Assembly (NCBI GenBank): GCA_964016885.1
Contig: OZ024741.1
Coordinates: forward strand, 118,358,001 to 118,422,000
From: Eledone cirrhosa
Taxonomy: Eukaryota
Reading direction: 5' to 3'
Length of the DNA stretch: 64,000 nucleotides
Below the pieces are notes generated by a model. It did not search any database, was not told the DNA's origin, and saw only the letters and a program-made list of their open reading frames with translations. This document shows positions 12,810 to 51,588 of this stretch, piece after piece. The first letter of the stretch is position 1. Each line of letters begins with the position of its first letter. A program made the position numbers and the translations under genes.

Positions 12810-13913
12810 CTGTATATTACTATAGACTGTATATTACTATAGATTGAATATTACTATAGACTATATTACTATAGATTGAATATTACTATAGACTGTATAT
12901 TACTATAGACTGTATATTACTATAGACTGTATATTACTATAGACTATATATTACTATAGACTATATATTACTCTAGACTGTATATTACTCTAGACTGTAT
13001 ATTACTATAGACTGTATATTACTATAGACTGTATATTACTATAGACTGTATATTACTATAGACTGTATATTACCATAGACTGTATATTACTATAGACTGT
13101 ATATTACTATAGACTGTATATTACTCTAGACTGTATATTACTCTAGACTGTATATTACTATAGACTGTATATTACTATAGACTATATTACTATAGACTGT
13201 ATATTACTATAGACTATATATTTATATAGACTATATATTACTATAGACTGTATATTACTATAGACTGTATATTACTATAGACTGTATATTACTATAGATT
13301 GAATATTACTATAGACTGTATATTACTATAGACTGTATATTACTATAGACTGTATATTACTATAGACTATATATTACTATAGACTGTATATTACTATAGA
13401 CTATATATTACTATAGACTGTATATTACTATAGACTGTATATTACTATAGACTGTATATTACTATAGACTGTATATTACTATAGACTGTATATTACTATA
13501 GACTGTATATTACTATAGACTGTATATTACTATAGACTGTATATTACTATAGACTATATTACTATAGACTGTATATTACTATAGACTATATATTTATATA
13601 GACTATATATTACTATAGACTGTATATTACTATAGACTGTATATTACTATAGACTGTATATTACTATAGATTGAATATTACTATAGACTGTATATTACTA
13701 TAGACTGTATATTACTATAGACTGTATATTACTATAGACTGTATATTTATATAGACTATATATTACTATAGACTATATATTACTCTAGACTGTATATTAC
13801 TCTAGACTGTATATTACTCTAGACTGTATATTACTCTAGACTGTATATTACTATAGACTGTATATTACTATAGACTGTATATTACTATAGACTGTATATT
13901 ATTATAGATTGTA

Positions 13914-14405
13914 GAAGGATGACAGCTGCATAAAAAGGTGCAGAGCACTAGAAGTAGATGGAAACCGTGGAGTGGAGAGACCCAAGATGACCTGGGATGA
14001 GGTGATAAAAGCCGACCGTACCCAATTACACCTCTCAAAGGCAATGACACGAGCGTGACCTCTGGTGCCATGCAGTAATACAGAGTACCCGACCTCCCAT
14101 GGGTACAAGCTGAAGCATATAGACAATATGCTCCCACACCCCCCATTGCAAGGTGGGCGTGGTGGTGCCACGGCAAAAAAGCACCCAGCCCACACTGTAA
14201 AGTGGACGTGTAGGCGCCATGAAAAAGCACCCAGCACTCACTGTAAATGAGGTTGGTGTTAGGAAGGGCATCCAGCTGTAGAAATCAAGCCAAATCAGTT
14301 CCTGTATGAGCAAGGCATGGTCAGCCGACCAGACACTGCCCACAACAGGACAACCCGTATAATCCATGCTAGCGTGGAAGAATGGACGTAAAACGGTGAT
14401 GATGA
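13914..14405 (+). mobile_element. RTE-B 3' fragment inside satellite (copy 2, duplicate of copy 1)
   Basis: Same 5' and 3' junctions as 12316-12809; only a few differences. Confidence 0.95.
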
Positions 14406-15777
14406 CTGTATATTACTATAGACTGTATATTTCTATAGACTGTATATTTCTATAGACTATATATTACTATAGACTGTATATTCCTCTAGACTGTATATTA
14501 CTCTAGACTATAAATTATTATAGACTGTATATTACTATAGACTGTATATTACTATAGACTATATTTCTATAGACTGTATATTACTATAGACTATATATTA
14601 CTATAGACTGTATATTACTATAGACTGTATATTACTATAGACTATATTTCTATAGACTATATATTTCTATAGACTGTATATTACTATAGACTGTATATTA
14701 CTATAGACTATATATTACTATAGACTATATATTACTATAGACTATATATTACTATAGACTGTATATTACTATAGACTGTATATTACTATAGACTGTATAT
14801 TACTATAGACTGTATGTTACTATAGACTGTATGTTACTATAGACTGTATATTACTATAGACTGTATATTACTATAGACTATATATTACTCTAGACTGTAT
14901 ATTACTATAGACTATATTACTATAGACTGTATATTACTATAGACTATATATTACTATAGACTATATATTACTATAGACTATATATTACTATAGACTATAT
15001 ATTACTATAGACTATATATTACTATAGACTATATATTACTCTAGACTGTATATTACTCTAGACTGTATATTACTATAGACTGTATATTACTATAGACTGT
15101 ATATTTCTATAGACAGTATATTTCTATAGACTGTATATTACTATAGACTGTATATTTCTATAGACAGTATATTTCTATAGACAGTATATTTCTATAGACT
15201 GTATATTACTATAGACTGTATATTACTATAGACTATATTACTATAGACTATATATTTCTATAGACTATATATTATTATAGACTATATATTATTATAGACT
15301 ATATATTATTATAGACCGTATATTACTATAGACTGTATATTACTATAGACTATATATTACTATAGACTGTATATTGCTATAGACAGTATATTACTATAGA
15401 CTATATATTACTATAGACTATATATTACTATAGACTGTATATTACTATAGACTGTATATTACTATAGACTGTATATTACTATAGACTGTATATTACTATA
15501 GACTGTATATTACTATAGACTGTATATTTCTATAGACAGTATATTTCTATAGACAGTATATTTCTATAGACTGTATATTACTATAGACTGTATATTACTA
15601 TAGACTATATTACTATAGACTGTATATTACTATAGACTATATATTTCTATAGACTATATTTTACTATAGACTATATATTACTATAGACTGTATATTACTA
15701 TAGACTGTATATTACTATAGACTGTATATTACTATAGCCTATATATTACTATAGACTGTATATTATTATAGACTAAA

Positions 15778-21269: not shown

Positions 21270-23476
21270 TACTAAACGACGATGGCACACTTGCCATCAC
21301 CGACGCTGATAAGAAGGTAGCTTGGAAGTGTCACTATGAAAGGCTACTAAATGAGGAGAATAATTGGGAGAAAGGCAGTCTCCCCCATATCGACCCAATA
21401 GAGGGACCAGCACTGTTACTCGAGGGGAGTATAATAAGTAAGGCAATCAAGGATATGAAGACTGGTAAGGCGGCTGGGCCTTCGGAAATAGTTGCTGAGA
21501 TGCTGAAGGCATCTGGCACGGTGGGACACACCATGGTCACCCGCATAGTTAACCAAGTCGTACAGAATGGGGTTGTTCCGAAGGACTGGCATAGCAGCAT
21601 CATCGTTAACTGTTATAAGGGTAAAGGAGACGCCCTAGATAGGAGTAACTATAGAGGCATTAAATTAATCGACCAGGTCATGAAGGTCACGGAAAAAGTA
21701 ATAGCGCAACTAATCAGAGAGAGAATTGACCTAGATGAAATGCAGTTCGGGTTTGTGTCAGGCAAAAGTACCACAGACGCTCTTTTCATAGTACGACAAC
21801 TACAGGAGAAGTACCTAGCTAAAGGTAAACCCCTCTACTTAGCTTTTGTCGACTTGGAGAAAGCCTTCGACAGAGTCCCCCGCTCCATTATCTGGTGGGC
21901 TCTTAGAAAACTAGGCGTTGACGAATGGCTTGTGAGGGCTATACAAGCCATGTATAAAGAAACAGTCAGCAAGGTTAGAATTAACAACGAATATAGTGAA
22001 GAGTTTAGCGTAAAAGTTGGCGTCCATCAGGGCTCTGTTCTCAGTCCACTACTATTTATTATTGCCCTTCAGGCTATAACAGAGGAGTTCAAGACAGGCT
22101 GCCCATGGGAACTCCTATACGCAGACGACCTGACACTCATAGCGGAATCAATGGCCGAGCTAGAGAAGAAATTCCAAACATGGAAGCACGGCCTAGAGTC
22201 AAAAGTACTTAAAATTAACCTGGCTAAGACCAAAGTACTAGTTTGTAGGAAAGAAAACAAGGCGGCGGTCCCTTCTGGGAAATGGTCGTGCTCGGTGTGT
22301 AGGAAAGGCGTAGGTAGAAACTCCATTTTATGTCCTAAATGCAAAGTATGGGTGCATAAAAGATGTAGTGGGATCACAGGTAAGCTAACTAAGAACATAG
22401 ATTTTACATGTGGCCGGTGCTCTGGTGCAATAAGTAGCAGCAAGTGCCCACAAACTACTAGCTCTTTCAATTGCGCAGAGGGTTCTATAGAAATAGTGGA
22501 CAGCTTCCGTTACCTGGGCGATAAAATCAGCAGTGGGGGAGGGTGCTCTGAAAGTACTGTAGCTAGAGTCAGAACTGGTTGGAAAAAGTTCAGAGAGCTT
22601 ATACCACTATTAGCTGCTAAAGGGTTCTCACTAAAAATGAAAGGCAGGTTGTACGATGCCTGCATACGAACAGCAATGCTGCATGGCAGTGAGACCTGGG
22701 CATTGTGTGCAGAGGATATACGCAGACTAGAGAGGAACGAAGCTTGCATGCTCCGCTGGATGTGTAACAGTAATATACGTGAACGGCAAAGCATAAACGA
22801 ACTAAGGAAAAAATTAGAGATAAGAGGGATCAGATGTTGTTTACTCGAGAGAAGGCTACGTTGGTATGGACACGTGATGCGCATGAAAGTCGATAGCTGT
22901 ATAACAAAGTGCAGGGCAATAAAGATAGACGGTAGTCACGGAATAGGCAGACCTAGAAAAACCTGGGACGAGCTGATAAACTCCGACATCACACACTTAC
23001 ACCTCTCCAAGACAATGTCACTGGACCGAGACCTTTGGCGGTACTCAGTAACAGAGAAGACCCGCCTTACCTAAAAATATATAGTAAAACCTACTCCAGC
23101 CAGTAGGCATCTCTAACAAAATACACCCCGTCCCACCACCACCACCCCCACCCGATCCACACCACCCCGTTCTATGTAAAGTTATGTTGGTGCCGCGCCA
23201 TCGAGGCCGAAACAAATGAGATCGTGTAGGTGTCACGACAAAAAAACACACAGTCCACGCTGTAATGTGGCCGTGTAGGCAACACGGTAAAAACCTCCCA
23301 GACCCACACTGTAAATGTGGTTGGTGTTAGGAAGGGCATCCAACTGTAGAAAACCTGCCAGACAGTCCTATGCGAGCAAGACAATCACTCTTGCCTCAAG
23401 TGGGACTACCCCCGTCCAAACCCATGCAAGCGTGGAACACGGACGTTAAACGTTGATGATGATGATGATGATGATG
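21270..23476 (+). mobile_element. RTE-A copy A2, 5'-truncated; RT-PHD-C-terminal frame open to stop at 23074
   Basis: LNDDG...YADDL...YLG...[17 protein letters not shown]; complete 3'UTR; (GAT)n tail. Confidence 0.97.
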
Positions 23477-23492
23477 TGTATATGTATGTATG

Positions 23493-23528
<36 letters not shown>

Positions 23529-23776
23529 TGTATGTATGTATGTATGTATATATATATGTGTATATATATGTATGTATATATATATATATATGTGTATATA
23601 TATGTATGTATATATATATATATATGTGTATATATATGTATGTATATATATATATATATGTGTATATGTATGTATATATATATATATATATGTGTATATA
23701 TATGTATGTATATATATATATATATATGTGTATATATATGTATGTATATATATATATATATATGTGTATATATATG

Positions 23777-23811
<35 letters not shown>

Positions 23812-23821
23812 ATATATATGT

Positions 23822-23852
<31 letters not shown>

Positions 23853-24159
23853 TATATATATGTATGTATATATATATATATATGTGTATATATATGTATG
23901 TATATATATATATATATATATATGTGTATATATATGTATGTATATATATATATATATATGTGTGTATATATATGTATGTATATATATATATATATGTGTG
24001 TATATATATGTATGTATATATATATATATATGTGTGTATATATATGTATGTATATATATATATATATATATATGTGTATATATATGTATGTATATATATA
24101 TATATATGTGTGTATATATATGTATGTATATATATATATATATATGTGTATATATATGT

Positions 24160-24190
<31 letters not shown>

Positions 24191-24246
24191 TATATATATG
24201 TATGTATATATATATGTGTATATATATGTATGTATATATATATGTG

Positions 24247-24284
<38 letters not shown>

Positions 24285-24313
24285 TATATATATATGTGTG
24301 TATATATATGTAT

Positions 24314-24349
<36 letters not shown>

Positions 24350-24354
24350 GTATG

Positions 24355-24385
<31 letters not shown>

Positions 24386-24412
24386 GTATGTATATATATA
24401 TATATATATATG

Positions 24413-24455
<43 letters not shown>

Positions 24456-24459
24456 GTAT

Positions 24460-24495
<36 letters not shown>

Positions 24496-24499
24496 GTAT

Positions 24500-24535
<36 letters not shown>

Positions 24536-24562
24536 GTATGTATATATATATATATATATATG

Positions 24563-24639
<77 letters not shown>

Positions 24640-24736
24640 GTATGTATATATATATGTGTATATATATGTATGTATATATATATGTGTATATATATGTATG
24701 TATATATATGTGTATATATATATGTGTATATATATG

Positions 24737-24771
<35 letters not shown>

Positions 24772-24781
24772 ATATATATGT

Positions 24782-24812
<31 letters not shown>

Positions 24813-24934
24813 TATATGTATGTATGTATGTATATATATATATATATATATGTGTGTATGTATGTATGTATATATATATATATATATATGTGTGTATGTA
24901 TGTATGTATATATATATATATGTGTATATGTATG

Positions 24935-24969
<35 letters not shown>

Positions 24970-25121
24970 ATATATATATATGTGTATATATATGTATGTA
25001 TATATATATATATATGTGTATATATATGTATGTATATATATATATATATATGTGTATATATATGTGTATATATATGTATATATATATGTATATATATATA
25101 TATGTGTATATATATGTATGT
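23477..25121. repeat. Compound (TA)n/(TATG)n microsatellite between two tail-to-tail RTE-A copies
   Basis: Higher-order motif TGTGTATATATATGTATGTA(TA)n. Confidence 0.97.
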
Positions 25122-27238
25122 ATCATCATCATCATCATCATCAACGTTTAACGTCCGTGTTCCACGCTTGCATGGGTTTGGACGGGGGTAGTCCCACTTG
25201 AGGCAAGAGTGATTGTCTTGCTCGCATAGGACTGTCTGGCAGGTTTTCTACAGTTGGATGCCCTTCCTAACACCAACCACATTTACAGTGGTGTATTTTG
25301 TTAGAGATGCCTACTGGCTGGAGTAGGTTTTACTATATATTTAGGTAAGGCGGGTCTTCTCTGTTACTGAGTACCGCCAAAGGTCTCGGTCCAGTGACAT
25401 TGTCTTGGAGAGGTGTAAGTGTGTGATGTCGGAGTTTATCAGCTCGTCCCAGGTTTTCCTAGGTTTGCCTATTCCGTGACTACCGTCTATCTTTATTGCC
25501 CTGCACTTTGTTATACAGCTATCGACTTTCATGCGCATCACGTGTCCATACCAACGTAGCCTTCTCTCGAGTAAACAACATCTGATCCCTCTTATCTCTA
25601 ATTTTTTCCTTAGTTCGTTTATGCTTTGCTGTTCACGTATATTACTGTTACACATCCAGCGGAGCATGCAAGCTTCGTTCCTCTCTAGTCTGCGTATATC
25701 CTCTGCACACAATGCCCAGGTCTCACTGCCGTGCAGCATTGCTGTTCGTATGCAGGCATCGTACAACCTGCCTTTCATTTTTAGTGAGAACCCTTTAGCA
25801 GCTAATAGTGGTATAAGCTCTCTGAACTTTTTCCAACCAGTTCTGACTCTAGCTACAGTACTTTCAGAGCACCCTCCCCCACTGCTGATTTTATCGCCCA
25901 GGTAACGGAAGCTGTCCACTATTTCTATAGAACCCTCTGCGCAATTGAAAGAGCTAGTAGTTTGTGGGCACTTGCTGCTACTTATTGCACCAGAGCACCG
26001 GCCACATGTAAAATCTATGTTCTTAGTTAGCTTACCTGTGATCCCACTACATCTTTTATGCACCCATACTTTGCATTTAGGACATAAAATGGAGTTTCTA
26101 CCTACGCCTTTCCTACACACCGAGCACGACCATTTCCCAGAAGGGACCGCCGCCTTGTTTTCTTTCCTACAAACTAGTACTTTGGTCTTAGCCAGGTTAA
26201 TTTTAAGTCCTTTTGACTCTAGGCCGTGCTTCCATGTTTGGAATTTCTTCTCTAGCTCGGCCATTGATTCCGCTATGAGTGTCAGGTCGTCTGCGTATAG
26301 GAGTTCCCATGGGCAGCCTGTCTTGAACTCCTCTGTTATAGCCTGAAGGGCAATAATAAATAGTAGTGGGCTGAGAACAGAGCCCTGATGGACGCCAACT
26401 TTTACGCTAAACTCTTCACTATATTCGTTGTTAATTCTAACCTTGCTGACTGTTTCTTTATACATGGCTTGTATAGCTCTCACAAGCCATTTGTCAACGC
26501 CTAGTTTTCTAAGAGCCCACCAGATAATGGAGCGGGGTACTCTGTCGAAGGCTTTCTCCAAGTCGACAAAAGCTAAGTAGAGGGGTTTACCTTTAGCTAG
26601 GTACTTCTCCTGTAGTTGTCGTACTATGAAAAGAGCGTCTGTGGTACTTTTGCCTGACACAAACCCGAACTGCATTTCATCTAGGTCAATTCTCTCTCTG
26701 ATTAGTTGCGCTATTACTTTTTCCGTGACCTTCATGACCTGGTCGATTAATTTAATGCCTCTATAGTTACTCCTATCTAGGGCGTCTCCTTTACCCTTAT
26801 AACAGTTAACGATGATGCTGCTATGCCAGTCCTTCGGAACAACCCCATTCTGTACGACTTGGTTAACTATGCGGGTGACCATGGTGTGTCCCACCGTGCC
26901 AGATGCCTTCAGCATCTCAGCAACTATTTCCGAAGGCCCAGCCGCCTTACCAGTCTTCATATCCTTGATTGCCTTACTTATTATACTCCCCTCGACTAAC
27001 ACTGCTGGTCCCTCTATTGGGTCGATATGGGGGAGACTGCCTTTCTCCCAATTATTCTCCTCATTTAGTAGCCTTTCATAGTGACACTTCCAAGCTACCT
27101 TCTTATCAGCGTCGGTGATGGCAAGTGTGCCATCGTCGTTTAGTACACACTTCTCCCCGACAATATCACGGTTTTCCTTGACGCATTGCCTAGCAATCCT
27201 GAACACCTCACGTTTTTGGTCATCGCGTTGTAGAATAT
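25122..27238 (-). mobile_element. RTE-A copy A3, 5'-truncated, frame open, about 180-bp deletion in the 3'UTR
   Basis: [12 protein letters not shown]...EKTRLT* (stop 25341); near-identical to A2; deletion junction TTTACAGTG|GTGTATTTTG near 25290. Confidence 0.97.
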
Positions 27239-27241
27239 GTA

Positions 27242-27274
<33 letters not shown>

Positions 27275-27620
27275 GTGTATATATATATATATATATATGA
27301 TGATATATATGTGTATATATATGTATGTATATATATATATATATATATGTGTATATATATGTATGTATATATATATATATATATGTGTATATATATGTAT
27401 GTATATATATATATATATATATGTATGTATATATATATATATATATATGTGTATATATATGTATGTATATATATATATATATATATGTGTATATGTATGT
27501 ATGTATATATATATATATATATATATGTGTATATGTATGTATGTATATATATATATATATATATATGTGTATATGTATGTATGTATATATATATATATAT
27601 ATATATGTGTATATGTATGT

Positions 27621-27651
<31 letters not shown>

Positions 27652-27709
27652 TATATATATGTATGTATGTATATATATATATATATATGTATGTATATAT
27701 ATATATATA
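27239..27709. repeat. (TA)n/(TATG)n microsatellite linking A3 and full-length B
   Basis: Read directly; contains an orphan GATGAT near 27299. Confidence 0.95.
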
Positions 27710-27999
27710 TCATCATCACCGTTTTACGTCCGTTCTTCCACGCTAGCATGGGTTAGACGGGTTGTCCTGTTGTGGGCAGTGTCTGGTCGGCTGACCATGC
27801 CTTGCTCATACAGGAACTGATCTGGCTTGATTTCTACAGCTGGATGCCCTTCCTAACACCAACCTCATTTACAGTGAGTGCTGGGTGCTTTTTCGTGGCG
27901 CCTACACGTCCACTTTACAGTGTGGGCTGGGTGCTTTTTTGCCGTGGCACCTCCACGACCACCTTGCGGTGGGGGGGGGGGGCATATTGTTTATATGCT

Positions 28000-30900
28000 T
28001 CAGCATGTACCCATGGGAGGTCGGGTACCCTGTATTACTGCGTGACGCCAGAAGTCACGGTCGTGTGTCATTGACTTTGAGAGGTGTAGTTGGGTAAGGT
28101 CGGCTTTTATCACCTCATCCCAAGTCATCTTGGGTCTCCCCACTCCGCGGTTTCCATCAACTTCTAGTGCTCTGCACCTTTTTATGCAGCTGTCATCCTT
28201 CATACGCATCACATGTCCATACCAGCGTAACCGCCTCTCCTGCACGCAGCATTTGATTCCTCTTATGCTCAGTCTCTCTCTCAATTCATTTATGCTTTGT
28301 CGTTCACGTATATTACTGTTACACATCCATCGGAGCATGCAGGCTTCGTTTCTCTCTAATCTACGTAAGTCTTCCACCTTCAGCGCCCAGGTCTCACTAC
28401 CATGCAACATCGCTGTTCGGATACACGCATCATACAGTCTGCCTTTCATTCTGAGGGAGAAGCCTTTTGCAGCTAGCAGTGGTAGTAGTTCCCTAAACTT
28501 CTTCCATCCCGTTCTTACCCTAGTTATTGTACTTTCTGAGCACCCACCTCCGTTGCTAATTCGGTCACCTAGGTAGCAGAAGCTGTCTACTGTTTCTACA
28601 GGGCCCTCCCAGAGATTGGTGGTACTTGTTTCCTGTGGCTGTTTGCTTGCTGTTTCAGCACAGCTGCTGCATGTGAATCCTACATTCTTAATTAAGCTTC
28701 CTGAGATCCCGCTACATCTCTTGTGTACCCATTGTTTGCATTTGGGGCAAAGAATGGAGTTCCTACCTACACCTTTCCTACATACTGAGCAAGGCCATTT
28801 CCCTGAGGGGATCTGGGTTCTGTTTTCTCGTCTACTTATAAGGACCTTAGTCTTTGTCATGTTGACTTTGAGGCCCTTTCTCTCTAGTCCCTGCTTCCAG
28901 GTTTGGAATTTATTCTCTAGTTCTACCATAGATTCAGCTATGAGTGCGAGGTCATCAGCATACAGGAGTTCCCATGGGCATCCGGTCTTAAACTCCTCCG
29001 TTATTGCCTGCAGGACTATGATGAACAGGAGAGGGCTAAGAACAGAGCCCTGGTGGACCCCAACCTGTACGCTAAATTCCTCGCTATACTCATTGCCAAT
29101 CCTAACTTTGCTGACTGCTCCCCTATACATGGCTTGTACCGCTTTCACAAGCCATTCATCTACTCCTAGTTTTCTAAGAGCCCACCAGATTACTGCACGT
29201 GGAACTCTGTCAAAGGCTTTCTCAAGGTCGACAAATGCCAAGTAGAGTGGCTTACTTTTAGCTAGGTACTTTTCCTGTAATTGCCTCACAAGGAAGAGCG
29301 CATCAGTGGTGCCTTTCCCTGGAACAAACCCAAATTGCATCTCGTCTATATTCACCCGGTCCCTAATCAGCTGTGCTATAACTCTTTCTGTTACTTTCAT
29401 GACCTGGTCCATCAACTTTATACCTCTATAGTTTCCTCTATCTAGTGCATCGCCTTTACCTTTGTAGCAGTTGACAATGATGCTACTGCACCAATCTTTT
29501 GGTATGGCCCCCTCTAGTATTACCTGGTTAACGATACGTGTGGTTATAGTGTGACCTACAGACCCAGATGCCTTCAGCATCTCGGCAGCTATACCCGATG
29601 GACCGGTTGCCTTCCCTATCTTCATATCTCTGATTGCCTTACTTACTACGCTGCCGCTGACTTGTACTGCTGGTCCCTCTATAGGGTCTACGTGGGGTAG
29701 GGTCTCTTCTTCCCATGCATTCTCCTCATTTAGTAATCTATCATAATGACTCTTCCATGCATCTTTCTTCTCAGCACTTGTGAGGGCAAGCTCACCTTTA
29801 TCATTCCGGATACACTTCTCTCCAATGACATCACAACTATCTCTGACACACTGCCTCGCAATCTTGAATACCTCCTGTTTCTGGTCCTCACGTTGTAAAA
29901 CATGCTTGAATTTTCTATCCTCTGCTTCCCTCCTAGCTAAGTATACTTGTCGCCTAGCTTCCCTCTTGGTCTCTATGTAATGTACCCTGCTCCCCCCGTT
30001 CTTCCATTCTTTCCATGCCTGTCTCTTGGCCTTGACTGCTTCATCTACCTTATTGTTCCACCACCAAGTCACTCTCCTCCTGCTTGAGGTCTTACTCCAG
30101 CCACAAACCTCATCCGTCGCCTCTAGTAAGTTATTTTTTAGGAACTCCCAGTTCTCTTCTACGTTAAATGTCTCTATCTGTTCTTCTTTACTGTCGTAGG
30201 CGTTGAGTAAAATATCTTTAAATCTGTTACTGGTTGAGGGGACTTTCAGCTTCCAGATCTTTCTTCTCCAGGTTGGCCTCTGTTTCAGGGCTCGTCTAGT
30301 TCTGACCGTGAGGTCGCTGACAACTAAGCTATGTTGGGATGTACATTCCTCACTAGGGAAGGCTTTTGTGTTTACGACCGTCCATCTGTCACGTCCTCTG
30401 ATGAGGATAAAATCTAACTGACTAGAGTGCTCCCCTGATCTATAGGTGATCAGGTGGTTGTCGGGTTTTTTAAAGTTTGTGTTACATATCGACATGTCAT
30501 TGGCGTCGCAGAATTCTAGAAGTCTGAATCCTTCCTCATTCCTTGTGCCAACTCCATGGCCTCCATGTACTCTATTGAAGCCGTCGCAGTGTTTACCTAC
30601 GTGTCCGTTAAAATCTCCTGCAATGATTAGGAAGTCCTTGTCGTCTGTTAGAGCAGTAGTGTGTATTAGGGACTCGTAAAACCTATCCTTAAGTTCGTCT
30701 GGCAGCCCCGATTGGGGTGCGTAAGCTGATATTATTGTGGTAATTGTCTTATTCAGGACTAGTCTGAGTTTAATGATTCTTGCATTTACCCTGTACACTG
30801 AGATTACTTTATCTACCCACTTGTCAGCTAATAGTATACCTACACCACCCATCCCATCGTCATTTCCCACCCAGAAAAATTTGTAGCACTGGCTTTTTCC

Positions 30901-31119
30901 TACAAGGACTCTAGCAGACCCTCCTCTCCATCTAGTCTCTTGCACACAGCATACATCAACTTCCTTTCGCTCTAGCATTTCTACGATTTCTCCTGCTCTT
31001 CCTTTCATTGAGCCTACATTGATGGTACCAACTCGGAGTTTTGGGCATTTGTCGACACTCGTAGGGGAGGGTCTCTGGGTTGGCGCTTCACGTGGGTGCT
31101 TGGTAGCTCGCAGATTCAT
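28000..31119 (-). CDS. RTE-clade retrotransposon polyprotein, 1039 aa: APE endonuclease + reverse transcriptase with internal PHD finger
   Basis: EN motifs GTINV, VQETRW, SAYAPQ, GDFNGHVG, LDFIL, SQH; RT motifs [38 protein letters not shown]; RTE C-terminus [18 protein letters not shown]. Confidence 0.96.
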   Translation of the reverse strand: MNLRATKHPREAPTQRPSPTSVDKCPKLRVGTINVGSMKGRAGEIVEMLERKEVDVCCVQETRWRGGSARVLVGKSQCYKFFWVGNDDGMGGVGILLADKWVDKVISVYRVNARIIKLRLVLNKTITTIISAYAPQSGLPDELKDRFYESLIHTTALTDDKDFLIIAGDFNGHVGKHCDGFNRVHGGHGVGTRNEEGFRLLEFCDANDMSICNTNFKKPDNHLITYRSGEHSSQLDFILIRGRDRWTVVNTKAFPSEECTSQHSLVVSDLTVRTRRALKQRPTWRRKIWKLKVPSTSNRFKDILLNAYDSKEEQIETFNVEENWEFLKNNLLEATDEVCGWSKTSSRRRVTWWWNNKVDEAVKAKRQAWKEWKNGGSRVHYIETKREARRQVYLARREAEDRKFKHVLQREDQKQEVFKIARQCVRDSCDVIGEKCIRNDKGELALTSAEKKDAWKSHYDRLLNEENAWEEETLPHVDPIEGPAVQVSGSVVSKAIRDMKIGKATGPSGIAAEMLKASGSVGHTITTRIVNQVILEGAIPKDWCSSIIVNCYKGKGDALDRGNYRGIKLMDQVMKVTERVIAQLIRDRVNIDEMQFGFVPGKGTTDALFLVRQLQEKYLAKSKPLYLAFVDLEKAFDRVPRAVIWWALRKLGVDEWLVKAVQAMYRGAVSKVRIGNEYSEEFSVQVGVHQGSVLSPLLFIIVLQAITEEFKTGCPWELLYADDLALIAESMVELENKFQTWKQGLERKGLKVNMTKTKVLISRRENRTQIPSGKWPCSVCRKGVGRNSILCPKCKQWVHKRCSGISGSLIKNVGFTCSSCAETASKQPQETSTTNLWEGPVETVDSFCYLGDRISNGGGCSESTITRVRTGWKKFRELLPLLAAKGFSLRMKGRLYDACIRTAMLHGSETWALKVEDLRRLERNEACMLRWMCNSNIRERQSINELRERLSIRGIKCCVQERRLRWYGHVMRMKDDSCIKRCRALEVDGNRGVGRPKMTWDEVIKADLTQLHLSKSMTHDRDFWRHAVIQGTRPPMGTC

Positions 31120-31424
31120 ATTTCATCTATTGATTCAGAGTTGCTCGTGTATTCCCAGCTCATCCATCCCTAACGGTGGGAAAATTGAGGGCTAGAAGGA
31201 CAGTGGTGGTGGGGTAATGGCAGGGTGTGTTGGGATGCGCCAGAGGAGGAGAGAGTTAGTTAGGCAGGTAGTAGCAGCAGCAGCAGTGGAAATGGCATGC
31301 TAGGTTTGATTGGTCGAATAGACTATGGTGGTGTGTGGGGGTGGGGGGGAGGGAAATTGTGAGGTAGGAACTGAGGGTCGCATGGTAAATATCCAAGTTA
31401 ATACTACATCAGTAAAATTAACAA

Positions 31425-31959
31425 TAATAACGTCATGAAAAAAGCTACTAAGAGAAACCCTCGAAAATTTATCGCTAATACAGCAGGGAAAATTTAACGC
31501 TAATACAGCAGGGAACATCATAATATTAACGACATGAAAAAGCTACTAAGAGAAACCCTCGAAAATTTATCGCTAATACAGCAGGGAAAATTTAACGCTA
31601 ATACAGCAGGGAACATCATAATATTAACGACATGAAAAAGCTACTAAGAGAAACCCTCGAAAATTTATCGCTAATACAGCAGGGAAAATTTAACGCTAAT
31701 ACAGCAGGGAACATCATAATATTAACGACATGAAAAAGCTACTAAGAGAAACCCTCGAAAATTTATCGCTAATACAGCAGGGAAAATTTAACGCTAATAC
31801 AGCAGGGAACATCATAATATTAACGACATGAAAAAGCTACTAAGAGAAACCCTCGAAAATTTATCGCTAATACAGCAGGGAAAATTTAACGCTAATACAG
31901 CAGGGAACATCATAATATTAACGACATGAAAAAGCTACTAAGAGAAACCCTCGAAAATT
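31425..31959 (-). repeat. 98-bp tandem monomer array 1 (about 5.4 units)
   Basis: GACATGAAAA at 31531, 31629, 31727, 31825, 31923 (period 98); each unit holds CGCTAATACAGCAGGGAA twice. Confidence 0.97.
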
Positions 31960-31964
31960 CATTC
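31959..31964 (+). promoter_or_regulatory. Initiator-like TCATTC at the inferred 5' start of the RTE-B RNA (inverted segment)
   Basis: Matches the Inr consensus TCAKTY and lies exactly at the inversion junction; the first T belongs to array 1. Confidence 0.4.
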
Positions 31965-32090
31965 AATCTGAAAATATTGAAGAGATAAGACACTTTGCCA
32001 TTCTTCTCTGCTAAAATGTACCACTGAGCTGATTCAAATTTTCCCAGCCAGCCATCCACCTAATCTACGAAGGTATTTTAGCCTACATAT

Positions 32091-33135
32091 TGTCGTTAAT
32101 ATTATGATGTTCCCTGCTGTATTAGCGTTAAATTTTCCCTGCTGTATTAGCGATAAATTTTCGAGGGTTTCTCTTAGTAGCTTTTTCATGTCGTTAATAT
32201 TATGATGTTCCCTGCTGTATTAGCGTTAAATTTTCCCTGCTGTATTAGCGATAAATTTTCGAGGGTTTCTCTTAGTAGCTTTTTCATGTCGTTAATATTA
32301 TGATGTTCCCTGCTGTATTAGCGTTAAATTTTCCCTGCTGTATTAGCGATAAATTTTCGAGGGTTTCTCTTAGTAGCTTTTTCATGTCGTTAATATTATG
32401 ATGTTCCCTGCTGTATTAGCGTTAAATTTTCCCTGCTGTATTAGCGATAAATTTTCGAGGGTTTCTCTTAGTAGCTTTTTCATGTCGTTAATATTATGAT
32501 GTTCCCTGCTGTATTAGCGTTAAATTTTCCCTGCTGTATTAGCGATAAATTTTCGAGGGTTTCTCTTAGTAGCTTTTTCATGTCGTTAATATTATGATGT
32601 TCCCTGCTGTATTAGCGTTAAATTTTCCCTGCTGTATTAGCGATAAATTTTCGAGGGTTTCTCTTAGTAGCTTTTTCATGTCGTTAATATTATGATGTTC
32701 CCTGCTGTATTAGCGTTAAATTTTCCCTGCTGTATTAGCGATAAATTTTCGAGGGTTTCTCTTAGTAGCTTTTTCATGTCGTTAATATTATGATGTTCCC
32801 TGCTGTATTAGCGTTAAATTTTCCCTGCTGTATTAGCGATAAATTTTCGAGGGTTTCTCTTAGTAGCTTTTTCATGTCGTTAATATTATGATGTTCCCTG
32901 CTGTATTAGCGTTAAATTTTCCCTGCTGTATTAGCGATAAATTTTCGAGGGTTTCTCTTAGTAGCTTTTTCATGTCGTTAATATTATGATGTTCCCTGCT
33001 GTATTAGCGTTAAATTTTCCCTGCTGTATTAGCGATAAATTTTCGAGGGTTTCTCTTAGTAGCTTTTTCATGTCGTTAATATTATGATGTTCCCTGCTGT
33101 ATTAGCGTTAAATTTTCCCTGCTGTATTAGCGATA
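32091..33135 (+). repeat. 98-bp tandem monomer array 2 (about 10.7 units), reverse complement of array 1
   Basis: TGTCGTTAATATTATGATGTTCCC.. units, essentially invariant. Confidence 0.97.
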
Positions 33136-33385
33136 TATATGTGTATATGTATGTATGTATGTATATATATATATATATATATGTGTATATGTATGTATGT
33201 ATGTATGTATGTATATATATATATATATATATGTGTATATATATGTATGTATGTATATATATATATATATATGTATGTATATATATATATATATATGTGT
33301 ATATATATGTATGTATGTATATATATATATATATATATATGTGTATATATATGTATGTATGTATATATATATATATGTATGTATG

Positions 33386-33416
<31 letters not shown>

Positions 33417-33835
33417 ATATATATATATATATATGTGTATATATATGTATGTATATATATATATATATATGTGTATATATATGTATGTATATATATATAT
33501 ATATATATGTGTATATATATGTATGTATATATATATATATATGTGTATATATATGTATGTATATATATATATATATGTGTATATATATGTATGTATATAT
33601 ATATATATATATATATGTGTATATATATGTATGTATATATATATATATATATATATGTGTATATATTTGTATGTATATATATATATATATATATGTGTAT
33701 ATATTTGTATGTATATATATATGTGTATATATTTGTATGTATATATATATATTTATATATGTGTATATATATGTATGTATATATATATATATATATATGT
33801 ATGTATATATATATGTATGTATATATATATGTATG

Positions 33836-33868
<33 letters not shown>

Positions 33869-33924
33869 GTATGTATATATATATATATATATATGTATGT
33901 ATATATATATGTATGTATATATAT

Positions 33925-33965
<41 letters not shown>

Positions 33966-34508
33966 TGTATGTATATATATATATATATATGTGTGTATAT
34001 ATATGTATGTATATATTTATATATATATATGTGTATATGTATGTATGTATATATATATATATATATATATGTGTATATATATGTATGTATGTATATATAT
34101 ATATATATATGTGTATATATATGTATGTATGTATATATATATATATATATGTGTATATATATGTATGTATGTATATATATATATATATATGTGTATATAT
34201 ATGTATGTATGTATATATATATATATATATGTGTATATATATGTATGTATGTATATATATATATATATGTGTATATATATGTATGTATGTATATATATAT
34301 ATATGTGTATATATATGTATGTATATATATATATATATGTGTATATATATATATGTGTATATATATGTATGTATGTATGTATATATATATATATATGTGT
34401 ATATATATGTATGTATGTATACATATATGTGTGTATGTATGTATGTATATATATATATATATGTGTATATATATGTATGTATGTACACATATATGTGTGT
34501 ATGTATGT

Positions 34509-34539
<31 letters not shown>

Positions 34540-34935
34540 TATATGTATGTATGTATGTATGTATGTATATATATATATATATGTGTATATGTATGTATGT
34601 ATGTATGTATGTATATATATATATATATATATGTGTGTATGTATGTATGTATGTATGTATGTATATATATATATGTGTATATGTATGTATGTATGTATGT
34701 ATGTATATATATATATATATATATGTGTATATGTATGTATGTATGTATGTATATATATATATATATATATGTGTATATGTATGTATGTATATATATATAT
34801 ATGTGTGTATATGTATGTATGTATATATATATATATGTGTGTATATGTATGTATGTATATATATATATATATATGTGTGTATATGTATGTATGTATATAT
34901 ATATATATATATATATATCTGTATATGTATGTATG

Positions 34936-34972
<37 letters not shown>

Positions 34973-35783
34973 ATATGTATGTATGTATATATATATGTGT
35001 ATATGTATGTATGTATGTATATATATATATATGTATGTATGTATGTATGTATATATATATATATATATATGTGTGTATATGTATGTATGTATGTATATAT
35101 ATATATATATTGTGTGTATGTATGTATGTATATATATATATATGTATGTATGTATGTATATATATATATATATGTATGTATGTATGTATGTATATATATA
35201 TATGTATGTATGTATATATATATATATATGTATGTATATATATATATATGTATGTATGTATGTATGTATATATATATATATATGTGTGTATGTATGTATA
35301 TATATATATATATGTGTATATGTATGTATGTATATATATATATGTATATATATATATGTGTATATATATATATATGTATGTATATATATATATATGTGTA
35401 TATATATGTATGTGTATATGTATGTATGTATATATATATATATATATGTGTATGTATATATATATATGTGTATATATATATGTATGTATATATATATATA
35501 TATGTGTATATATATGTATGTATATATATATATATATGTGTATATATATGTATGTATATATATATATATATGTGTATATATATGTATGTATATATATATA
35601 TATATGTGTATATATATGTATGTATATATATATATATATGTGTATATATATGTATGTATATATATATATATAGATGTGTATATATATAGATGTGTATATA
35701 TATGCATGTATGTATATATATGTATATATATGTGTATATATATATATATATACATGTGTGTATATATATGTATATATATGTGT
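33136..35783. repeat. Compound (TA)n/(TATG)n microsatellite, about 2.6 kb
   Basis: Same higher-order motif as 23477-25121 and 27239-27709. Confidence 0.97.
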
Positions 35784-37640
35784 ATCATCATCAACGTTTA
35801 ACGTCCGTGTTCCACGCTTGCATGGGTTTGACGGGGGTAGTCCCACTTGAGGCAAGAGTGATTGTCTTGCTCGCATAGGACTGTCTGGCAGGTTTTCTAC
35901 AGTTGGATGCCCTTCCTAACACCAACCACATGTACAGTGTGGGTCTGGGAGGTTTTTACCGTGTTGCCTACACGGCCACATTACAGCGTGGACTGTGTGT
36001 TTTTTTGTCGTGACACCTACACGATCTCATTTGTTTCGGCCTCGATGGCGCGGCACCAACATAACTTTACATAGAACGGGGTGGTGTGGATCGGGTGGGG
36101 GTGGTGGTGGTGGGACGGGGTGTATTTTGTTAGAGATGCCTACTGGCTGTAGTAGGTTTTACTATGTATTTAGGTAAGGCGGGTCTTCTCTGTTACTGAG
36201 TACCGCCAAAGGTCTCGGTCCAGTGACATTGTCTTGGAGAGGTGTAAGTGTGTGAGGCCGGAGTTTATCAGCTCGTCCCAGGTTTTTCTAGGTCTGCCTA
36301 TTCCGTGGCTACCGGCTATCTTTATTGCCCTGCACTTTGTTATACAGCTATCGACTTTCATGCGCATCACGTGTCCATACCAACGTAGCCTTCTCTCGAG
36401 TAAACAACATCTGATCCCTCTTATTTCTAATTTTTTCCTTAGTTCGTTTATTCTTTGCCGTTCACGTATATTACTGTTTCACATCCAGCGGAGCATGCAA
36501 GCTTCGTTCCTCTCTAGTCTGCGTATAGCCTCTGCACACAATGCCCAGGTCTCACTGCCATGCAACATTGCTGTTTGTATGCAGGCATCGTACAACCTGC
36601 CTTTCATTTTTAGGGAGAACCCTTTAGCAGCTAATAGTGGTATAAGCTTTCTGAACTTTTTCCAACCAGTTCTGACTCTAGCTACTGTACTTTCAGAGCA
36701 CCCTCCCCCACTGCTGATTTTATCACCCAGGTAACGGAAGCTGTCCACTATTTCTATAGAACCCTCTGCGCAATTGAAAGAGCTAGTATTTTGTGGGCAC
36801 TTTGTGCTACTTATTGCACAAGGGCACCGGCCACATGTAAAATCTATGTTCTTAGTTAGCTTACCTGTGATCCCACTACATCTTTTATGCACCGATACTT
36901 TGCATTTAGGACATAAAATGGAGTTTCTACCTACGCCTTTCCAACACACTGAGCATGACCATTTCCCAGAAGGGACCGCCGCCTTATTTTCTTTCCTACA
37001 AACTAGAACTTTAGTCTTAGCCAGGTTAATTTTAAGTCCTTTTGATTCTAGGCCGTGCTTCCACGTTTGGAATTTCTTCTTTAGCTCGGCCATTGATTCA
37101 GCTATGAATGTCAGGTCGTCTGCGTATAGGAGTTCCCATGGGCAGCCGGTCTTGAACTCCTCTGTTATAGCCTGAAGGGCAATAATAAATAGTAGGGGGC
37201 TGAGAACAGAGCCCTGATGGACGCCAACTTTTACGCTAAACTCTTCACTATATTCGTTGTTAATTCTAACCTTGCTGACTGTTTCTTTATACATGGCTTG
37301 TATAGCTCTCACAAGCCATTCGTCAACACCTAGTTTTCTAAGAGCCCACCAGATAATGGAGCGGGGGAATCTGTCGAAGGCTTTCTCCAAGTCGACAAAA
37401 GCTAAGTAGAGGGGTTTACCTTTAGCTACGTACTTCTCCTGTAGTTGTCGTACAATGAAAAGAGCGTCTGTGGTACTTTTGCCTGACACAAACCCGAACT
37501 GCATTTCATCTAGGTCAATTCTCTCTCTGATTAGTTGCGCTATTACTTTTTCCGTGACCTTCATGACCTGGTCTATTAATTTAATGCCTCTATAGTTACT
37601 CCTATCTAGGGCGTCTCCTTTACCCTTATAACAGTTAACG
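35784..37640 (-). mobile_element. RTE-A copy A4, 5'-truncated, premature stop near 36479
   Basis: [17 protein letters not shown]; 3'UTR and tail. Confidence 0.96.
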
Positions 37641-38008
37641 TATATATATGTATATATATGTGTATATATATATATATACATGTGTATATATATATCTGTA
37701 TATATATGTGTATATATATGTATATACGTGTGTATATGTATATACATGTGTGTATATGTATATACATGTGTGTATATGTATATACATGTGTGTATATGTA
37801 TATACATGTGTGTATATGTATATACATGTGTGTATATGTATATACATGTGTGTATATGTATATACATGTGTGTATATGTATATACATGTGTGTATATGTA
37901 TATACATGTGTGTATATGTATATACATGTGTGTATATGTATATATATGTGTGTATATGTATATATATGTGTATATATGTATATATATGTGTGTATATATG
38001 TATATATA

Positions 38009-38054
<46 letters not shown>

Positions 38055-38596
38055 TACACACAATGTGTATATATATGTATATATATATATGTGTATATAT
38101 ATGTATATATATATATGTGTATATATATGTATATATATATATGTGTATATATATGTATATATATATATGTGTATATATATGTATATATATATATGTTTAT
38201 GTATATATATATATATGTATATATATATATGTTTATATATATGTATATATATATATATGTGTATATATATGTATATATATATATATGTGTATATATATGT
38301 ATATATATATATATGTGTATATATATGTATATATATATATATGTGTATATATATGTATATATATGTATATGTATATATATATGTATATATATATGTATAT
38401 ATATATGTATATATATATGTATATATATATATATGTATATATGTATATATATATGTATATATATATATGTATATATATATGTATATATATATATATGTGT
38501 ATATATGTATATATATATATGTGTGTATATATGTGTATATATATGTATATATATATATGTGTATATATATGTATATATATATGTGTATATATATGT
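37641..38596. repeat. TA/TG microsatellite including a 20-bp minisatellite (CATGTGTGTATATGTATATA, about 10 copies)
   Basis: 20-bp period visible at about 37725-37945. Confidence 0.95.
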
Positions 38597-39999
38597 ATCA
38601 TCATCATCATCATCACCGTTTTACGTCCGTTCTTCCACGCTAGCATGGGTTAGACGGGTTGTCCTGTTGTGGGCAGTGTCTGGTCGGCTGACCATGCCTT
38701 GCTCATACAGGAACTGATTTGGCTTGATTTCTACAGCTGGATGCCCTTCCTAACACCAACCTCATTTACAGTGAGTGCTGGGTGCTTTTTCGTGGCGCCT
38801 ACACGTCCAATTTACAGTGTGGGCTGGGTGCTTTTTTTTGCCGTGGCACCTCCACGACCACCTTGCGGTGGGGGGGGGGGGGGCATATTGTTTATATGCT
38901 TCAGCATGTACCCATGGGAGGTCGGGTACCCTGTATTACTGCGTGACGCCAGAAGTCACGGTCATGTGTCATTGCCTTTGAGAGGTGTAGTTGGGTAAGG
39001 TCGGCTTTTATCACCTCATCCCAAGTCATCTTGGGTCTCCCCACTCCGCGGTTTCCATCAACTTCTAGTGCTCTGCACCTTTTTATGCAGCTGTCATCCT
39101 TCATACGCATCACATGTCCATACCAGCGCAACCGCCTCTCCTGCACACAGCATTTGATTCCTCTTATGCTCAGTCTCTCTCTCAATTCATTTATGCTTTG
39201 TCGTTCACGTATATTACTATTACACATCCATCGGAGCATGCAGGCTTTGTTTCTCTCTAATCTACGTAAGTCTTCCACCTTCAGCGCCCAGGTGTCACTA
39301 CCATGTAACATTGCTGTTCGGATACACGCATCATACAGTCTGCCTTTCATTCTGAGGGAGAAGCCTTTTGCAGCTAGCAGTGGCAGTAGTTCCCTAAACT
39401 TCTTCCATCCCGTTCTTACCCTAGTTATTGTACTATCTGAACACCCACCTCTGCTGCTAATTCGGTCATCTAGGTAGCAGAAGCTGTCTACTGTTTCTAC
39501 AGAGCCCTCCCAGAGATTGGTGGTACTTGTTTCCTGTGGCTGTTTGCTGCTTGCTGTCCCAGCACAGCTGCTGCATGTGAAGCCTACATTCTTAATTAAG
39601 CTTCCTGAGATCCCGCTACATCTCTTGTGTACCCATTGTTTGCATTTGGGGCAGAGAATGGAGTTCCTACCTACACCTTTCCTACATACTGAGCAAGGCC
39701 ATTTCCCTGAGGGGATCTGGGTTCTGTTTTCTCGTCTACTTACAAGGACCTTAGTCTTTGTCATGTTGACTTTGAGACCCTTTCTTTATAGTCCCTGCTT
39801 CCAAGTTTGGAATTTATTCTCTAGTTCTACCATAGATTCAGCTATGAGTGCGAGGTCATCAGCATACAGGAGTTCCCATGGGCATCCGGTCTTAATCTCC
39901 TCCGTTATTGCCTGCAGGACTATGATGAACAGGAGGGGGCTAAGAACAGAGCCCTGGTGGACCCCAACCTGTACGCTAAATTCCTCGCTATACTCATTG
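38597..39999 (-). mobile_element. RTE-B copy, 5'-truncated
   Basis: Colinear with 27710-29096; ORF piece 38901-39764; homology stops at TACTCATTG. Confidence 0.96.
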
Positions 40000-40174
40000 T
40001 TATCCCGGACAAACCACCCACACCCGGATATGTCTCCGCAAACAGTAATTCTCTTCTCGAATGGGCCATGGTGCCCAAATCCTGAATTGAAAGACTTCGC
40101 CAGGTGGTGCTATTAAGTTAGACATGGCCTGGGCCAATACTGGCCAAAACATTTCAAAGTTATTCAAAGTTTTA

Positions 40175-49523: not shown

Positions 49524-50881
49524 TCATAGCTGAATCTATGGCTGAACTAGAGAAGAAATTGCAAACATTGAAGCATCGATTAGAATCAAAAGGCCTTAAA
49601 GTTAAGACTAAAGCTAAGACTAAAGTTCTAGTTTGTAGGAAGGAAAATAGGGCACAGGTGCCCTCTGGGAAATGGCCATGCTCAGTGTGTAGGATAGAAG
49701 TAGGTAGAAATTCCATTTTATGTTCCAAATGCAAACTATGGGTACATAAAAGATGTAGTGGGATCACAGGTAAACTATCTAAGAATGTAGATTTTATATG
49801 TGGCCGATGCTCAGGTGCAATAAGTAGCAAGTGCCCACAGGATACTAGCTCCTTCTATTGCCCAGATGGTTCTATAGAAATAGTGGACACTTTCCGTTAC
49901 CTGGGTGACAAAATCAGCAGTGGTAGAGGGTGCTCTGAAAGTATAGTAGCCAGAGTCAGAACGGGATGGAAAAAGTTCAGAGAGCTTATACCACTGTTGG
50001 CCACAAAAGGTTTCTCTCTAAAAATGAAAGGCAGATTGTATGATGCCTGTATACGAACAGCAATGCTACATGGCAGTGAGACATGGGCATTGTATGCAGA
50101 GGATCTGCACAGACTGGAAAGGAACGAAACATGCATGCTCCGTTGGATGTGTAATAGTAATATATGTGAACGGCAAAGCATAAATGAACTAAGTGAGAAA
50201 TTAGGAATAAGAGGGATCAGATGCTGTTTACTTGAGAGAAGACTACGTTGGTATGGTCACGTGATGCGCATGAAAGACGACAGCTGTATAAAAAAGTGCA
50301 GAGCGATCAAAATTGATGGAAGTTACGGAGTAGGTAGACCCAGAAAAACCTGGGATGATTTGATAAATTCCAACCTTACACACTTGTACCTCTCTAAGAC
50401 AATGTTACTGGACCGAGATCTTTGGCGCTACGCAGTAATACAGAAGACCCGCCTTGCCTATGTACAAAGCGAAACCTACAGTCGGTAGGCACCTTTTAAC
50501 CAAATATACACCCCAATCCACTATCCTTACTCTATCTTCCCACTCCCACCAACACCACCCTCTCTCTGTAAAGTTGGTACCACAACATTCAGTCCAAATA
50601 AATGAGATAATGAGATCGACATCGTGTAGGTGTCACAACAAAAAAACACAGTCCACGCTGTAATGTGGTTGTGTAGGTAACACAGTAAAAAGTTCCCAGT
50701 TCCACAGTGTAAATGTGGTTGGTATTATGAAGGGCATCCAGCCGTAGAAAACCTGCCAGATAGTCTTATATGAGCGAGACACTGTCACCCGACCAACCTT
50801 GCCTCAAGTGGGACAACTCCCGTCTAACTCATGCTAGCATGGAAGATGAACGTTAAACGAAGATGATGATGATGATGATGA
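49524..50881 (+). mobile_element. RTE-A-related older subfamily copy, 5'-truncated
   Basis: ORF 49538-50488 with PHD finger and C-terminus; A-like 3'UTR; (GAT)n tail; starts right after (TA)n. Confidence 0.94.

Positions 50882-51557: not shown

Positions 51558-51558
<1 letters not shown>
51204..51558 (-). mobile_element. Chimeric CORE-type tRNA SINE carrying an RTE-B-like 3'UTR and tail
   Basis: Minus strand: B-box GAGTTCAATTC, CORE-like TCCTTGAGCAAGACACTT, then B 3'UTR repeats, AGGAAGGGCATCC box, CCCTTGCAAGCAGGG hairpin, GAT tail. Confidence 0.7.

Positions 51559-51588
<30 letters not shown>

What the first reader, a model, noticed from the sequence alone, without database searches (positions are those of the whole stretch)
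31425..33135. Base-precise 5' inversion (twin-priming signature) in a full-length RTE
Array 2 ends ...GCTGTATTAGCGATA (33135), and array 1 read in element sense begins AATTTTCGAGGG (31959). Joined, they give the monomer sequence CGATAAATTTTCGAGGG with no gap or overlap. Flipping 31960-33135 restores one RNA: CATTC head of about 131 nt, about 16 monomers, 5'UTR, ORF. The outer breakpoint ATA is microhomologous to the flanking (TA)n, as expected for a second priming event. Twin priming is established for mammalian L1; I do not know it as typical of RTE.
Basis: partly seen in the sequence, partly recalled or inferred. Interest (0 to 1): 0.8.

Follow-up and report, generated by a model that had tools for sequence, protein, structure and literature searches.

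The report
Front-flipped RTE LINE, ORF intact
A young jumping gene of the RTE type sits in a TA repeat with its front 1.2 kb turned around, likely because both cut DNA ends started copying its RNA, as human L1 elements do; unusually, the flip lies upstream of the gene and leaves the gene intact.

Summary
An RTE-type LINE on the - strand has an intact 1039-aa endonuclease/RT/PHD ORF, a (GAT)3 tail and 5.3 98-bp monomers in sense. A 131-bp head and 10.7 more monomers follow in the opposite orientation, ending at (TA)n. Turned back, the two arrays join in perfect register (15.98 units). Contigs of one public run show the family colinear (head, about 2.4 monomers, 5' UTR), and none of its 13 contigs bridges the inverted junction. 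These are twin-priming signatures (confidence 0.77). Corrections: the register is exact only modulo 98 and within 0-7 nt; CATTC is not shown to be the 5' start; the target-site duplication cannot be read; 16 monomers is about seven times the family mean. No long read was available. The scan has noted twin-primed RTE copies in six findings from other genomes; my paper searches found none described. Distinctive here: ORF, UTR and five monomers survive in sense next to a 521-bp perfect inverted repeat.

The parts
27235..27710 (.). (TA)n/(TATG)n microsatellite, 3' flank of the element
   Evidence: same strand polarity and 14-mer content as the 5' flank (cosine 0.95)
27710..27718 (-). (GAT)3 tail; last AT shared with the target
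27719..27999 (-). 3' UTR, shared with other copies in the window
28000..31119 (-). Intact single ORF, 1039 aa: APE endonuclease (32-266), RT (557-761, YADD at 720), PHD-like finger (777-820)
31120..31438 (-). 5' UTR; its first ~37 nt are a degenerate monomer start (monomer exit)
   Evidence: an X1 contig's loose end equals 31409-31438 in 30 of 30 letters
31439..31959 (-). Array 1: 5.32 units of the 98-bp monomer in element sense, starting at unit position 66 (5' end of the non-inverted cDNA)
31956..31959 (.). Inner junction microhomology AATT (self-complementary); 6 of 7 matches if read on to 31962
   Evidence: (X1 record 2 matches from 31956 and has 80 other letters before it)
31960..32090 (+). 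131-bp head of the family, inverted relative to the ORF
   Evidence: head-to-monomer contig in X1 at depth 60.5
32091..33135 (+). Array 2: 10.66 units, inverted, ending at unit position 65 (start of the second cDNA)
33133..33135 (.). Outer junction microhomology ATA with the (TA)n flank; 5 of 6 matches if read on to 33138
33136..35785 (.). (TA)n/(TATG)n microsatellite, 5' flank of the element

Best explanation
This is one young RTE-type LINE copy whose front 1176 bp (head plus 10.7 monomers) are inverted, likely by twin priming during insertion into a TA microsatellite. Shown: the layout, the register, the microhomologies, the intact ORF, and a colinear family layout in run X1. Inferred steps: (1) the element's endonuclease nicked the (TA)n array, and the RT copied the RNA from the (GAT)n tail through ORF and UTR into the monomers. 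(2) The other target strand was cut before copying finished; its 3' end (...ATAT) paired with AUA at monomer position 63-65, just ahead of the first RT, and primed a second cDNA towards the RNA 5' end. (3) The first cDNA stopped at about position 66 and the second at the AATT before the head. The two 3' ends, both ending in self-complementary AATT, annealed and were filled in. The 16 monomers come either from a source copy with a long array or from expansion of both arms by whole units after insertion (an RNA with about 3 monomers could seed both arms); the data do not separate these.
For: Geometry as in the L1 model: tail, sense part, inverted part, with the internal breakpoint joined straight to target DNA (model in PMC2912911 passages). 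Inner breakpoints 0-7 nt apart in register; in L1, 32 of 32 had 1-10 bp deletions or duplications (PMC11702581 passage) and 132 of 287 lay within 20 bp (PMC12016303 section 8). Microhomology of 4 nt at the inner and 3 nt at the outer junction; a two-sided null gives 0.018 and 0.098. Family colinear in X1: head-to-monomer contig depth 60.5, monomer-to-monomer 73.1, monomer-to-UTR exit 56.7 (derived from the depth bins). The depth left of 31956 is fully accounted for by three monomer contigs, so 0 of 13 X1 contigs and 0 of 2 X6 contigs bridge the junction in the window's form. Monomer-to-head depth is about 2.4 in both X1 and X22, so a 16-unit layout is not typical. Both flanks have the same polarity (G 49/C 1; G 353/C 6) and similar higher-order units, so one array was split and the flank is not inverted. 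The 30 letters shown of X1's upstream extension are absent from the window (0 matches at up to 3 mismatches), and no AATT lies at the outer junction, which a reciprocal DNA inversion at AATT would leave.
Against: No read or contig of this locus was seen; no run is known to carry this insertion. The target-site duplication is unreadable: at most 8 bp of (AT)4, below the 10-20 bp of L1 inversions (PMC4245944 passages). X1 differs from the window copy at fixed places (31997, and one extra base after 32025), so it may be another species or subfamily. X22 holds the window-type variants, but its reads end at AATT sites, which I read as enzyme cuts, so it cannot test the junction; the X2 depths cannot be resolved. 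ATA and AATT each occur only twice per monomer, so abutting breakpoints are far less surprising than 1 in 98 if both ends seek microhomology. The left flank also resembles a third array nearby (cosine 0.92). 0 of the 5 other copies of this family in the window show an inverted 5' piece, so a family habit is not shown.
Confidence: 0.77

Rival explanations
1. The copy inserted colinear and was rearranged later at DNA level (break repair or replication template switching at the monomer array), inverting head plus monomers and losing anything further 5'.
For: Tandem arrays and (TA)n tracts are unstable (general knowledge), and the array here is about seven times the family mean, so the region has probably changed. 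Microhomology is also a mark of DNA end joining.
Against: The outer breakpoint falls exactly on the element/target border; flank polarity is unchanged; a reciprocal inversion between the two AATT words would leave AATT at 33136, where TATA is found; all units are 100% identical and the ORF is intact, so little time has passed.
Confidence: 0.08
2. Assembly or library artefact (chimeric read, or a mis-join between repeat arrays).
For: The locus is made of repeats; no read support could be checked; no genome is held.
Against: A fold-back chimera mirrors the flank, whereas here the arms are unequal, the spacer is a real family sequence in its native orientation to array 2, and the far flank keeps the polarity of the near one. 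Two coordinated junctions with microhomology are needed. The window has no N.
Confidence: 0.06
3. The inverted layout belongs to a source element and is shared by a subfamily, so this copy inherited it.
For: The run that shows colinearity (X1) lacks the window's variants; the run that has them (X22) cannot show the junction.
Against: Monomer-to-head depth in X22 is 2.4, not the much higher ratio expected if 16-unit copies were common. One X2 contig has (TA)n directly before the head. The founding event would still need an inversion mechanism.
Confidence: 0.04
4. Two-RNA variant: the second target end primed on another RNA molecule of the same family, and the two cDNAs were joined at AATT.
For: Opposite-orientation inserts from different templates are described for L1 (PMC11702581 passage). 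The register could follow from ATA and AATT being neighbours in the monomer.
Against: Abutting breakpoints are simplest on one RNA, and both arms are identical in sequence.
Confidence: 0.05

Closest known systems
5'-inverted (twin-primed) mammalian L1 insertions (model of Ostertag and Kazazian 2001, not read; seen through PMC2912911, PMC4245944, PMC11702581 passages and PMC12016303 passages and section 8)
   Same: Tail-primed sense part, internally primed inverted part joined to the target, breakpoints adjacent on the RNA, microhomology at the outer and inner junction.
   Different: RTE-type single ORF without ORF1; (GAT)n tail, not poly(A); (TA)n target; no readable TSD. The inversion point lies upstream of the ORF, so the ORF stays whole, whereas 5' inversion is described as disabling (PMC4245944 passage).
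One 5'-inverted Nimb-2_DR insert in chicken DT40 cells (PMC4245944 passage)
   Same: 5' inversion by a LINE other than L1.
   Different: Another LINE family, cell-culture assay, single case; that paper found none for ZfL2-1.
RTE-2_OV of Octopus vulgaris (PMC9115989 passages)
   Same: Full-length single-ORF RTE with endonuclease, RT and a zinc finger.
   Different: 1109 aa, UTRs of about 600 nt, C2H2 finger and microsatellite 3' UTR, against 1039 aa, PHD-like finger and 98-bp monomers here. The words 'inversion', 'monomer' and 'tandem' occur 0 times in its main text. Sequences were not compared.
Mouse L1 5' monomer promoters (recalled; also named in the abstract start of bioRxiv 10.1101/2022.08.06.500894)
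   Same: Tandem monomers of variable number upstream of a 5' UTR.
   Different: Here a unique head precedes the monomers, and promoter activity is untested.

Membership tests
Twin-primed 5'-inverted LINE insertion | 3' part in sense ending in the element's tail at the target | tested here: met
   (GAT)3 at 27710-27718 followed by (AT)n; same tail in other copies
Twin-primed 5'-inverted LINE insertion | 5' part inverted, its internal end joined directly to target DNA | tested here: met
   33135 abuts (TA)n; family order head-monomer-UTR shown by X1 contigs
Twin-primed 5'-inverted LINE insertion | Two internal breakpoints close together on the RNA | tested here: met
   0-7 nt apart, but only modulo 98
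Twin-primed 5'-inverted LINE insertion | Microhomology at the 5' (outer) junction | tested here: met
   ATA, 3 nt; chance about 0.10 against these flanks, so weak alone
Twin-primed 5'-inverted LINE insertion | Microhomology at the inversion (inner) junction | tested here: met
   AATT, 4 nt; chance about 0.02; native AATT shown directly in one X1 contig
Twin-primed 5'-inverted LINE insertion | Discrete target-site duplication around the whole insertion | tested here: inconclusive
   At most 8 bp, all (AT)n; the empty site is not available
Twin-primed 5'-inverted LINE insertion | Layout present in the DNA molecule (long-read support) | not testable with these tools
   No genome held; no long-read run among the 24 listed
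RTE clade LINE | Single ORF with APE endonuclease then RT, no ORF1 | tested here: met
   Pfam PF03372/PF14529 and PF00078; no other frame of 150 aa or more between ORF start and 5' flank apart from microsatellite frames
RTE clade LINE | Short microsatellite 3' tail | tested here: met
   (GAT)n; compare Table 2 of PMC6007223 (passage)
RTE clade LINE | RT groups with named RTE elements in a tree | not tested
   None of the 120 listed relatives (45-55% identity) carries a clade name; the RTE label is from anatomy and recall
Penelope-like inverted insertion | GIY-YIG endonuclease and Penelope-type RT, or a ribozyme-bearing unit | tested here: not met
   APE endonuclease; best PDB match L1 ORF2p; no ribozyme in Rfam scan of 31000-33200

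The most novel reading that the evidence does not exclude
RTE elements, which have no ORF1 protein, twin-prime as a regular outcome at TA microsatellites. When the flip lands inside the 5' monomer array, the copy is not killed: it keeps its ORF, UTR and five promoter monomers, gains ten outward-facing ones, and becomes a still-active source element with a 521-bp perfect inverted repeat that can drive two-way transcription or double-stranded RNA.
Probability: 0.15. Interest if true: 0.65.

Novelty: new variant of a known kind. Interest (0 to 1): 0.4.

Why it matters
Papers treat 5' inversion as nearly exclusive to L1 (PMC2912911, PMC4245944 passages); Alu, which moves without ORF1p, almost never inverts (0.02% against 18% for germline L1; PMC12016303). 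A twin-primed element with a single ORF in an invertebrate-type genome suggests that neither ORF1p, a poly(A) tail nor a mammalian host is required (inference). It also dates second-strand cleavage to before the end of reverse transcription in this clade. One copy cannot give a rate, and the scan has similar unchecked notes from other genomes, so the value here is a clean extra case with both microhomologies. The special point is that the ORF survives, which makes activity of an inverted copy testable.

Tried and rejected
No whole genome is held, so copies could not be counted. A monomer pattern in metagenome contigs gave 0 loci; the ORF protein gave no confirmed relative in metagenome contigs (0 of 33 stretches) or viral contigs (0 of 1). 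Read piles ending at 31956/31959 in X22 first looked like a natural 5' end; rejected, because piles also occur at the other two AATT sites of the stretch (32037-32040, 32131-32134) and 99% of what was laid runs on unlike; enzyme cutting at AATT is my inference. A fold-back DNA transposon reading was rejected: the monomers run on into the LINE UTR in X1 contigs and in 300 X22 reads. Monomer and head fold no better than shuffles (z -0.53, -1.14, -0.25), and Rfam gave only two sub-threshold miRNA matches on the (TA)n flank, so there is no support for a ribozyme or RNA-circle origin of the arrays. The rate of inversion across the family's ORF body in other copies remains unmeasured. Paper searches listed no paper describing twin priming or 5' monomers in an RTE; PMC13295347 on Bov-B insertion signatures has 0 uses of 'inversion', 'inverted' or 'twin'; PMC5389967 and PMC2718515 cite the model only in their references. 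Subscription papers, including Ichiyanagi and Okada 2008 on RTE junctions, and supplements were not seen and may bear on novelty.

Full report
What is there. The window is repeat-rich animal-type DNA; octopus is likely, from my recall and from unchecked earlier notes on this genome, not from a test. A LINE lies on the - strand between two (TA)n/(TATG)n tracts, 27235-27710 and 33136-35785. From its 3' end it has a (GAT)3 tail (27710-27718), a 3' UTR, one open frame of 1039 aa (28000-31119) with APE endonuclease, RT and PHD-like domains, a 5' UTR, and 5.32 copies of a 98-bp unit (31439-31959). Then the orientation switches: a 131-bp head (31960-32090) and 10.66 copies of the same unit (32091-33135) read on the + strand. 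All units are identical, and the two arrays form a perfect inverted repeat of 521 bp. Turning 31960-33135 round gives an unbroken array of 15.98 units.

The native layout. No genome is held, so I used public runs (24 listed, 5 hold half or more of the words) and laid four of them on 31927-32155, a stretch with exactly one monomer. In X1 (13 contigs laid) one contig joins head to monomer in the same orientation (depth 60.5), one joins monomer to monomer (73.1), one crosses positions 65-66 of the unit as plain monomer (142.5), and one leaves the monomer into letters equal to the window's UTR at 31409-31438 (depth 56.7, derived from the bins). These depths reproduce the four bins around the junction exactly, so 0 of 13 X1 contigs, and 0 of 2 X6 contigs, cross 31959/31960 in the window's form. 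The family is colinear there, with about 2.4 monomers per head; X22 gives the same ratio. The window's 16 units are an outlier. Limits: contigs show presence, not absence; X1 differs from the window copy at two fixed places and may be another species; X22 is a reduced-representation library whose reads end at AATT sites and cannot test the junction; X2 depths could not be resolved.

The only X1 contig that crosses the head's left edge (depth 19.5, against 23.9 for the head start) matches from 31956, not 31960, and carries 80 other letters before it. The 30 letters shown are not in the window. So AATT natively precedes CATTC, and the inner junction has a 4-nt microhomology. In X22 about 640 reads start their match at 31956 against a head depth of 679, which fits a native AATT but would also fit an inverted layout. 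AATT is its own complement, so two minus-strand cDNAs ending there can anneal. Read on, the match is 6 of 7; at the outer junction ATA extends to 5 of 6. Chance levels for the perfect parts are 0.018 and 0.098. The same contig means that CATTC is not shown to be the element's start. Against that, one X2 contig has (TA)n directly before 31961, so the 5' end is unresolved and 'near full-length' is the safe term.

How much the register proves. It is blind to whole units and, with both microhomologies, allows a 0-7 nt gap (8 of 98 registers). ATA and AATT each occur twice per unit and are neighbours at 63-69, so if both ends sought microhomology the abutment is not rare. It supports one RNA template, but modestly.

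Target. Both flanks have the same strand polarity and similar 14-mer content (cosine 0.95; five other tracts 0.30-0.54, but the tract at 23479 gives 0.92). This fits one tract split by the insertion, with no inversion of the flank. The longest possible duplication is (AT)4, 8 bp, and is uninformative.

Mechanism. Most likely twin priming (0.77): first cDNA from the tail to about unit position 66; second cDNA primed by the TA-rich end on AUA at 63-65 and ending at AATT before the head; annealing at AATT; fill-in. The order of events is inferred from the L1 model as given in PMC2912911 (passages), PMC4245944 (passages), PMC11702581 (passages) and PMC12016303 (passages and section 8); Ostertag and Kazazian 2001 was not read. 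A later DNA inversion (0.08) must put a break exactly on the element border and, if made at the AATT pair, would leave AATT at the outer junction, which is not there. An artefact (0.06) must make two coordinated junctions. A shared subfamily layout (0.04) conflicts with the 2.4 depth ratio in X22. A second RNA template (0.05) cannot be excluded. The long array came from a long source or grew after insertion; an unchecked note on this genome (e1-8673048) describes such growth in another LINE.

Other copies. Five other copies of this family in the window (94-97% identical) are 5'-truncated, lack monomers, and 0 of 5 have an inverted piece of the element in 400 bp of 5' flank. The family-wide rate is unknown.

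Comparison and novelty. It works like a twin-primed L1 and meets five of seven listed features; the duplication is inconclusive and read support untestable. RTE membership rests on anatomy, not on a tree. It is not Penelope-like, although notes on this genome describe two-sided priming by such elements in (TA)n. PMC2912911 calls early top-strand cleavage nearly exclusive to L1, and PMC4245944 found one non-L1 case. Eight searches listed no paper on twin priming in RTE; subscription papers and supplements were not seen. Passages of PMC6007223, PMC9115989, PMC13282606 and PMC4476161 do not report it. The scan has six unchecked notes of twin-primed RTE copies in other genomes; these are leads, not support. 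What is particular here is the position of the flip: ORF, UTR and more monomers than the family mean remain in sense. If the monomers are the promoter (untested), the copy could still be active.

Verdict. Real, and most likely a twin-primed insertion: a known mechanism in a clade where it is little described. New variant of a known kind; interest 0.4.

Noticed in passing
window 40000-40172: A 173-bp unique piece lies between the 5' end of the truncated copy at 38608-39999 (97% identical to the focal element) and the next (TA)n tract. It matches neither the element, the rest of the window, Rfam nor the fetched relatives; it may be a template switch from another RNA.
   Followed up: partly
window 54024-54067: The 5' end of the copy at 54051-55890 carries a 21-bp direct duplication of its first bases, as from repeated priming or a template jump at the 5' junction.
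   Followed up: no
window 12316-12808 and 13914-14404: Two equally truncated copies of this family sit in the 17-bp satellite (10092-15774) with the same junctions, so one insertion was probably duplicated with the satellite.
   Followed up: no
window 1554-3951, 21290-39999, 49524-57339: Two RTE-type families about 75% identical share a (GAT)n tail and stack in (TA)n tracts, several head to tail; most 3' ends and many 5' ends abut TA repeats.
   Followed up: partly
window 28000-31119, residues 777-820: PHD-like finger just after the RT domain; many of the 120 relatives at 45-55% identity also carry PF00628.
   Followed up: no
run X6 on window 31927-32155: The monomer is covered at depth 38.4 but the head only at 2.0 and only in part, so a related organism may pair the same monomer with another head or carry longer arrays.
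   Followed up: no
window 32109-32153: The 98-bp unit holds an internal duplication of about 28 bp (27 of 28 identical).
   Followed up: no
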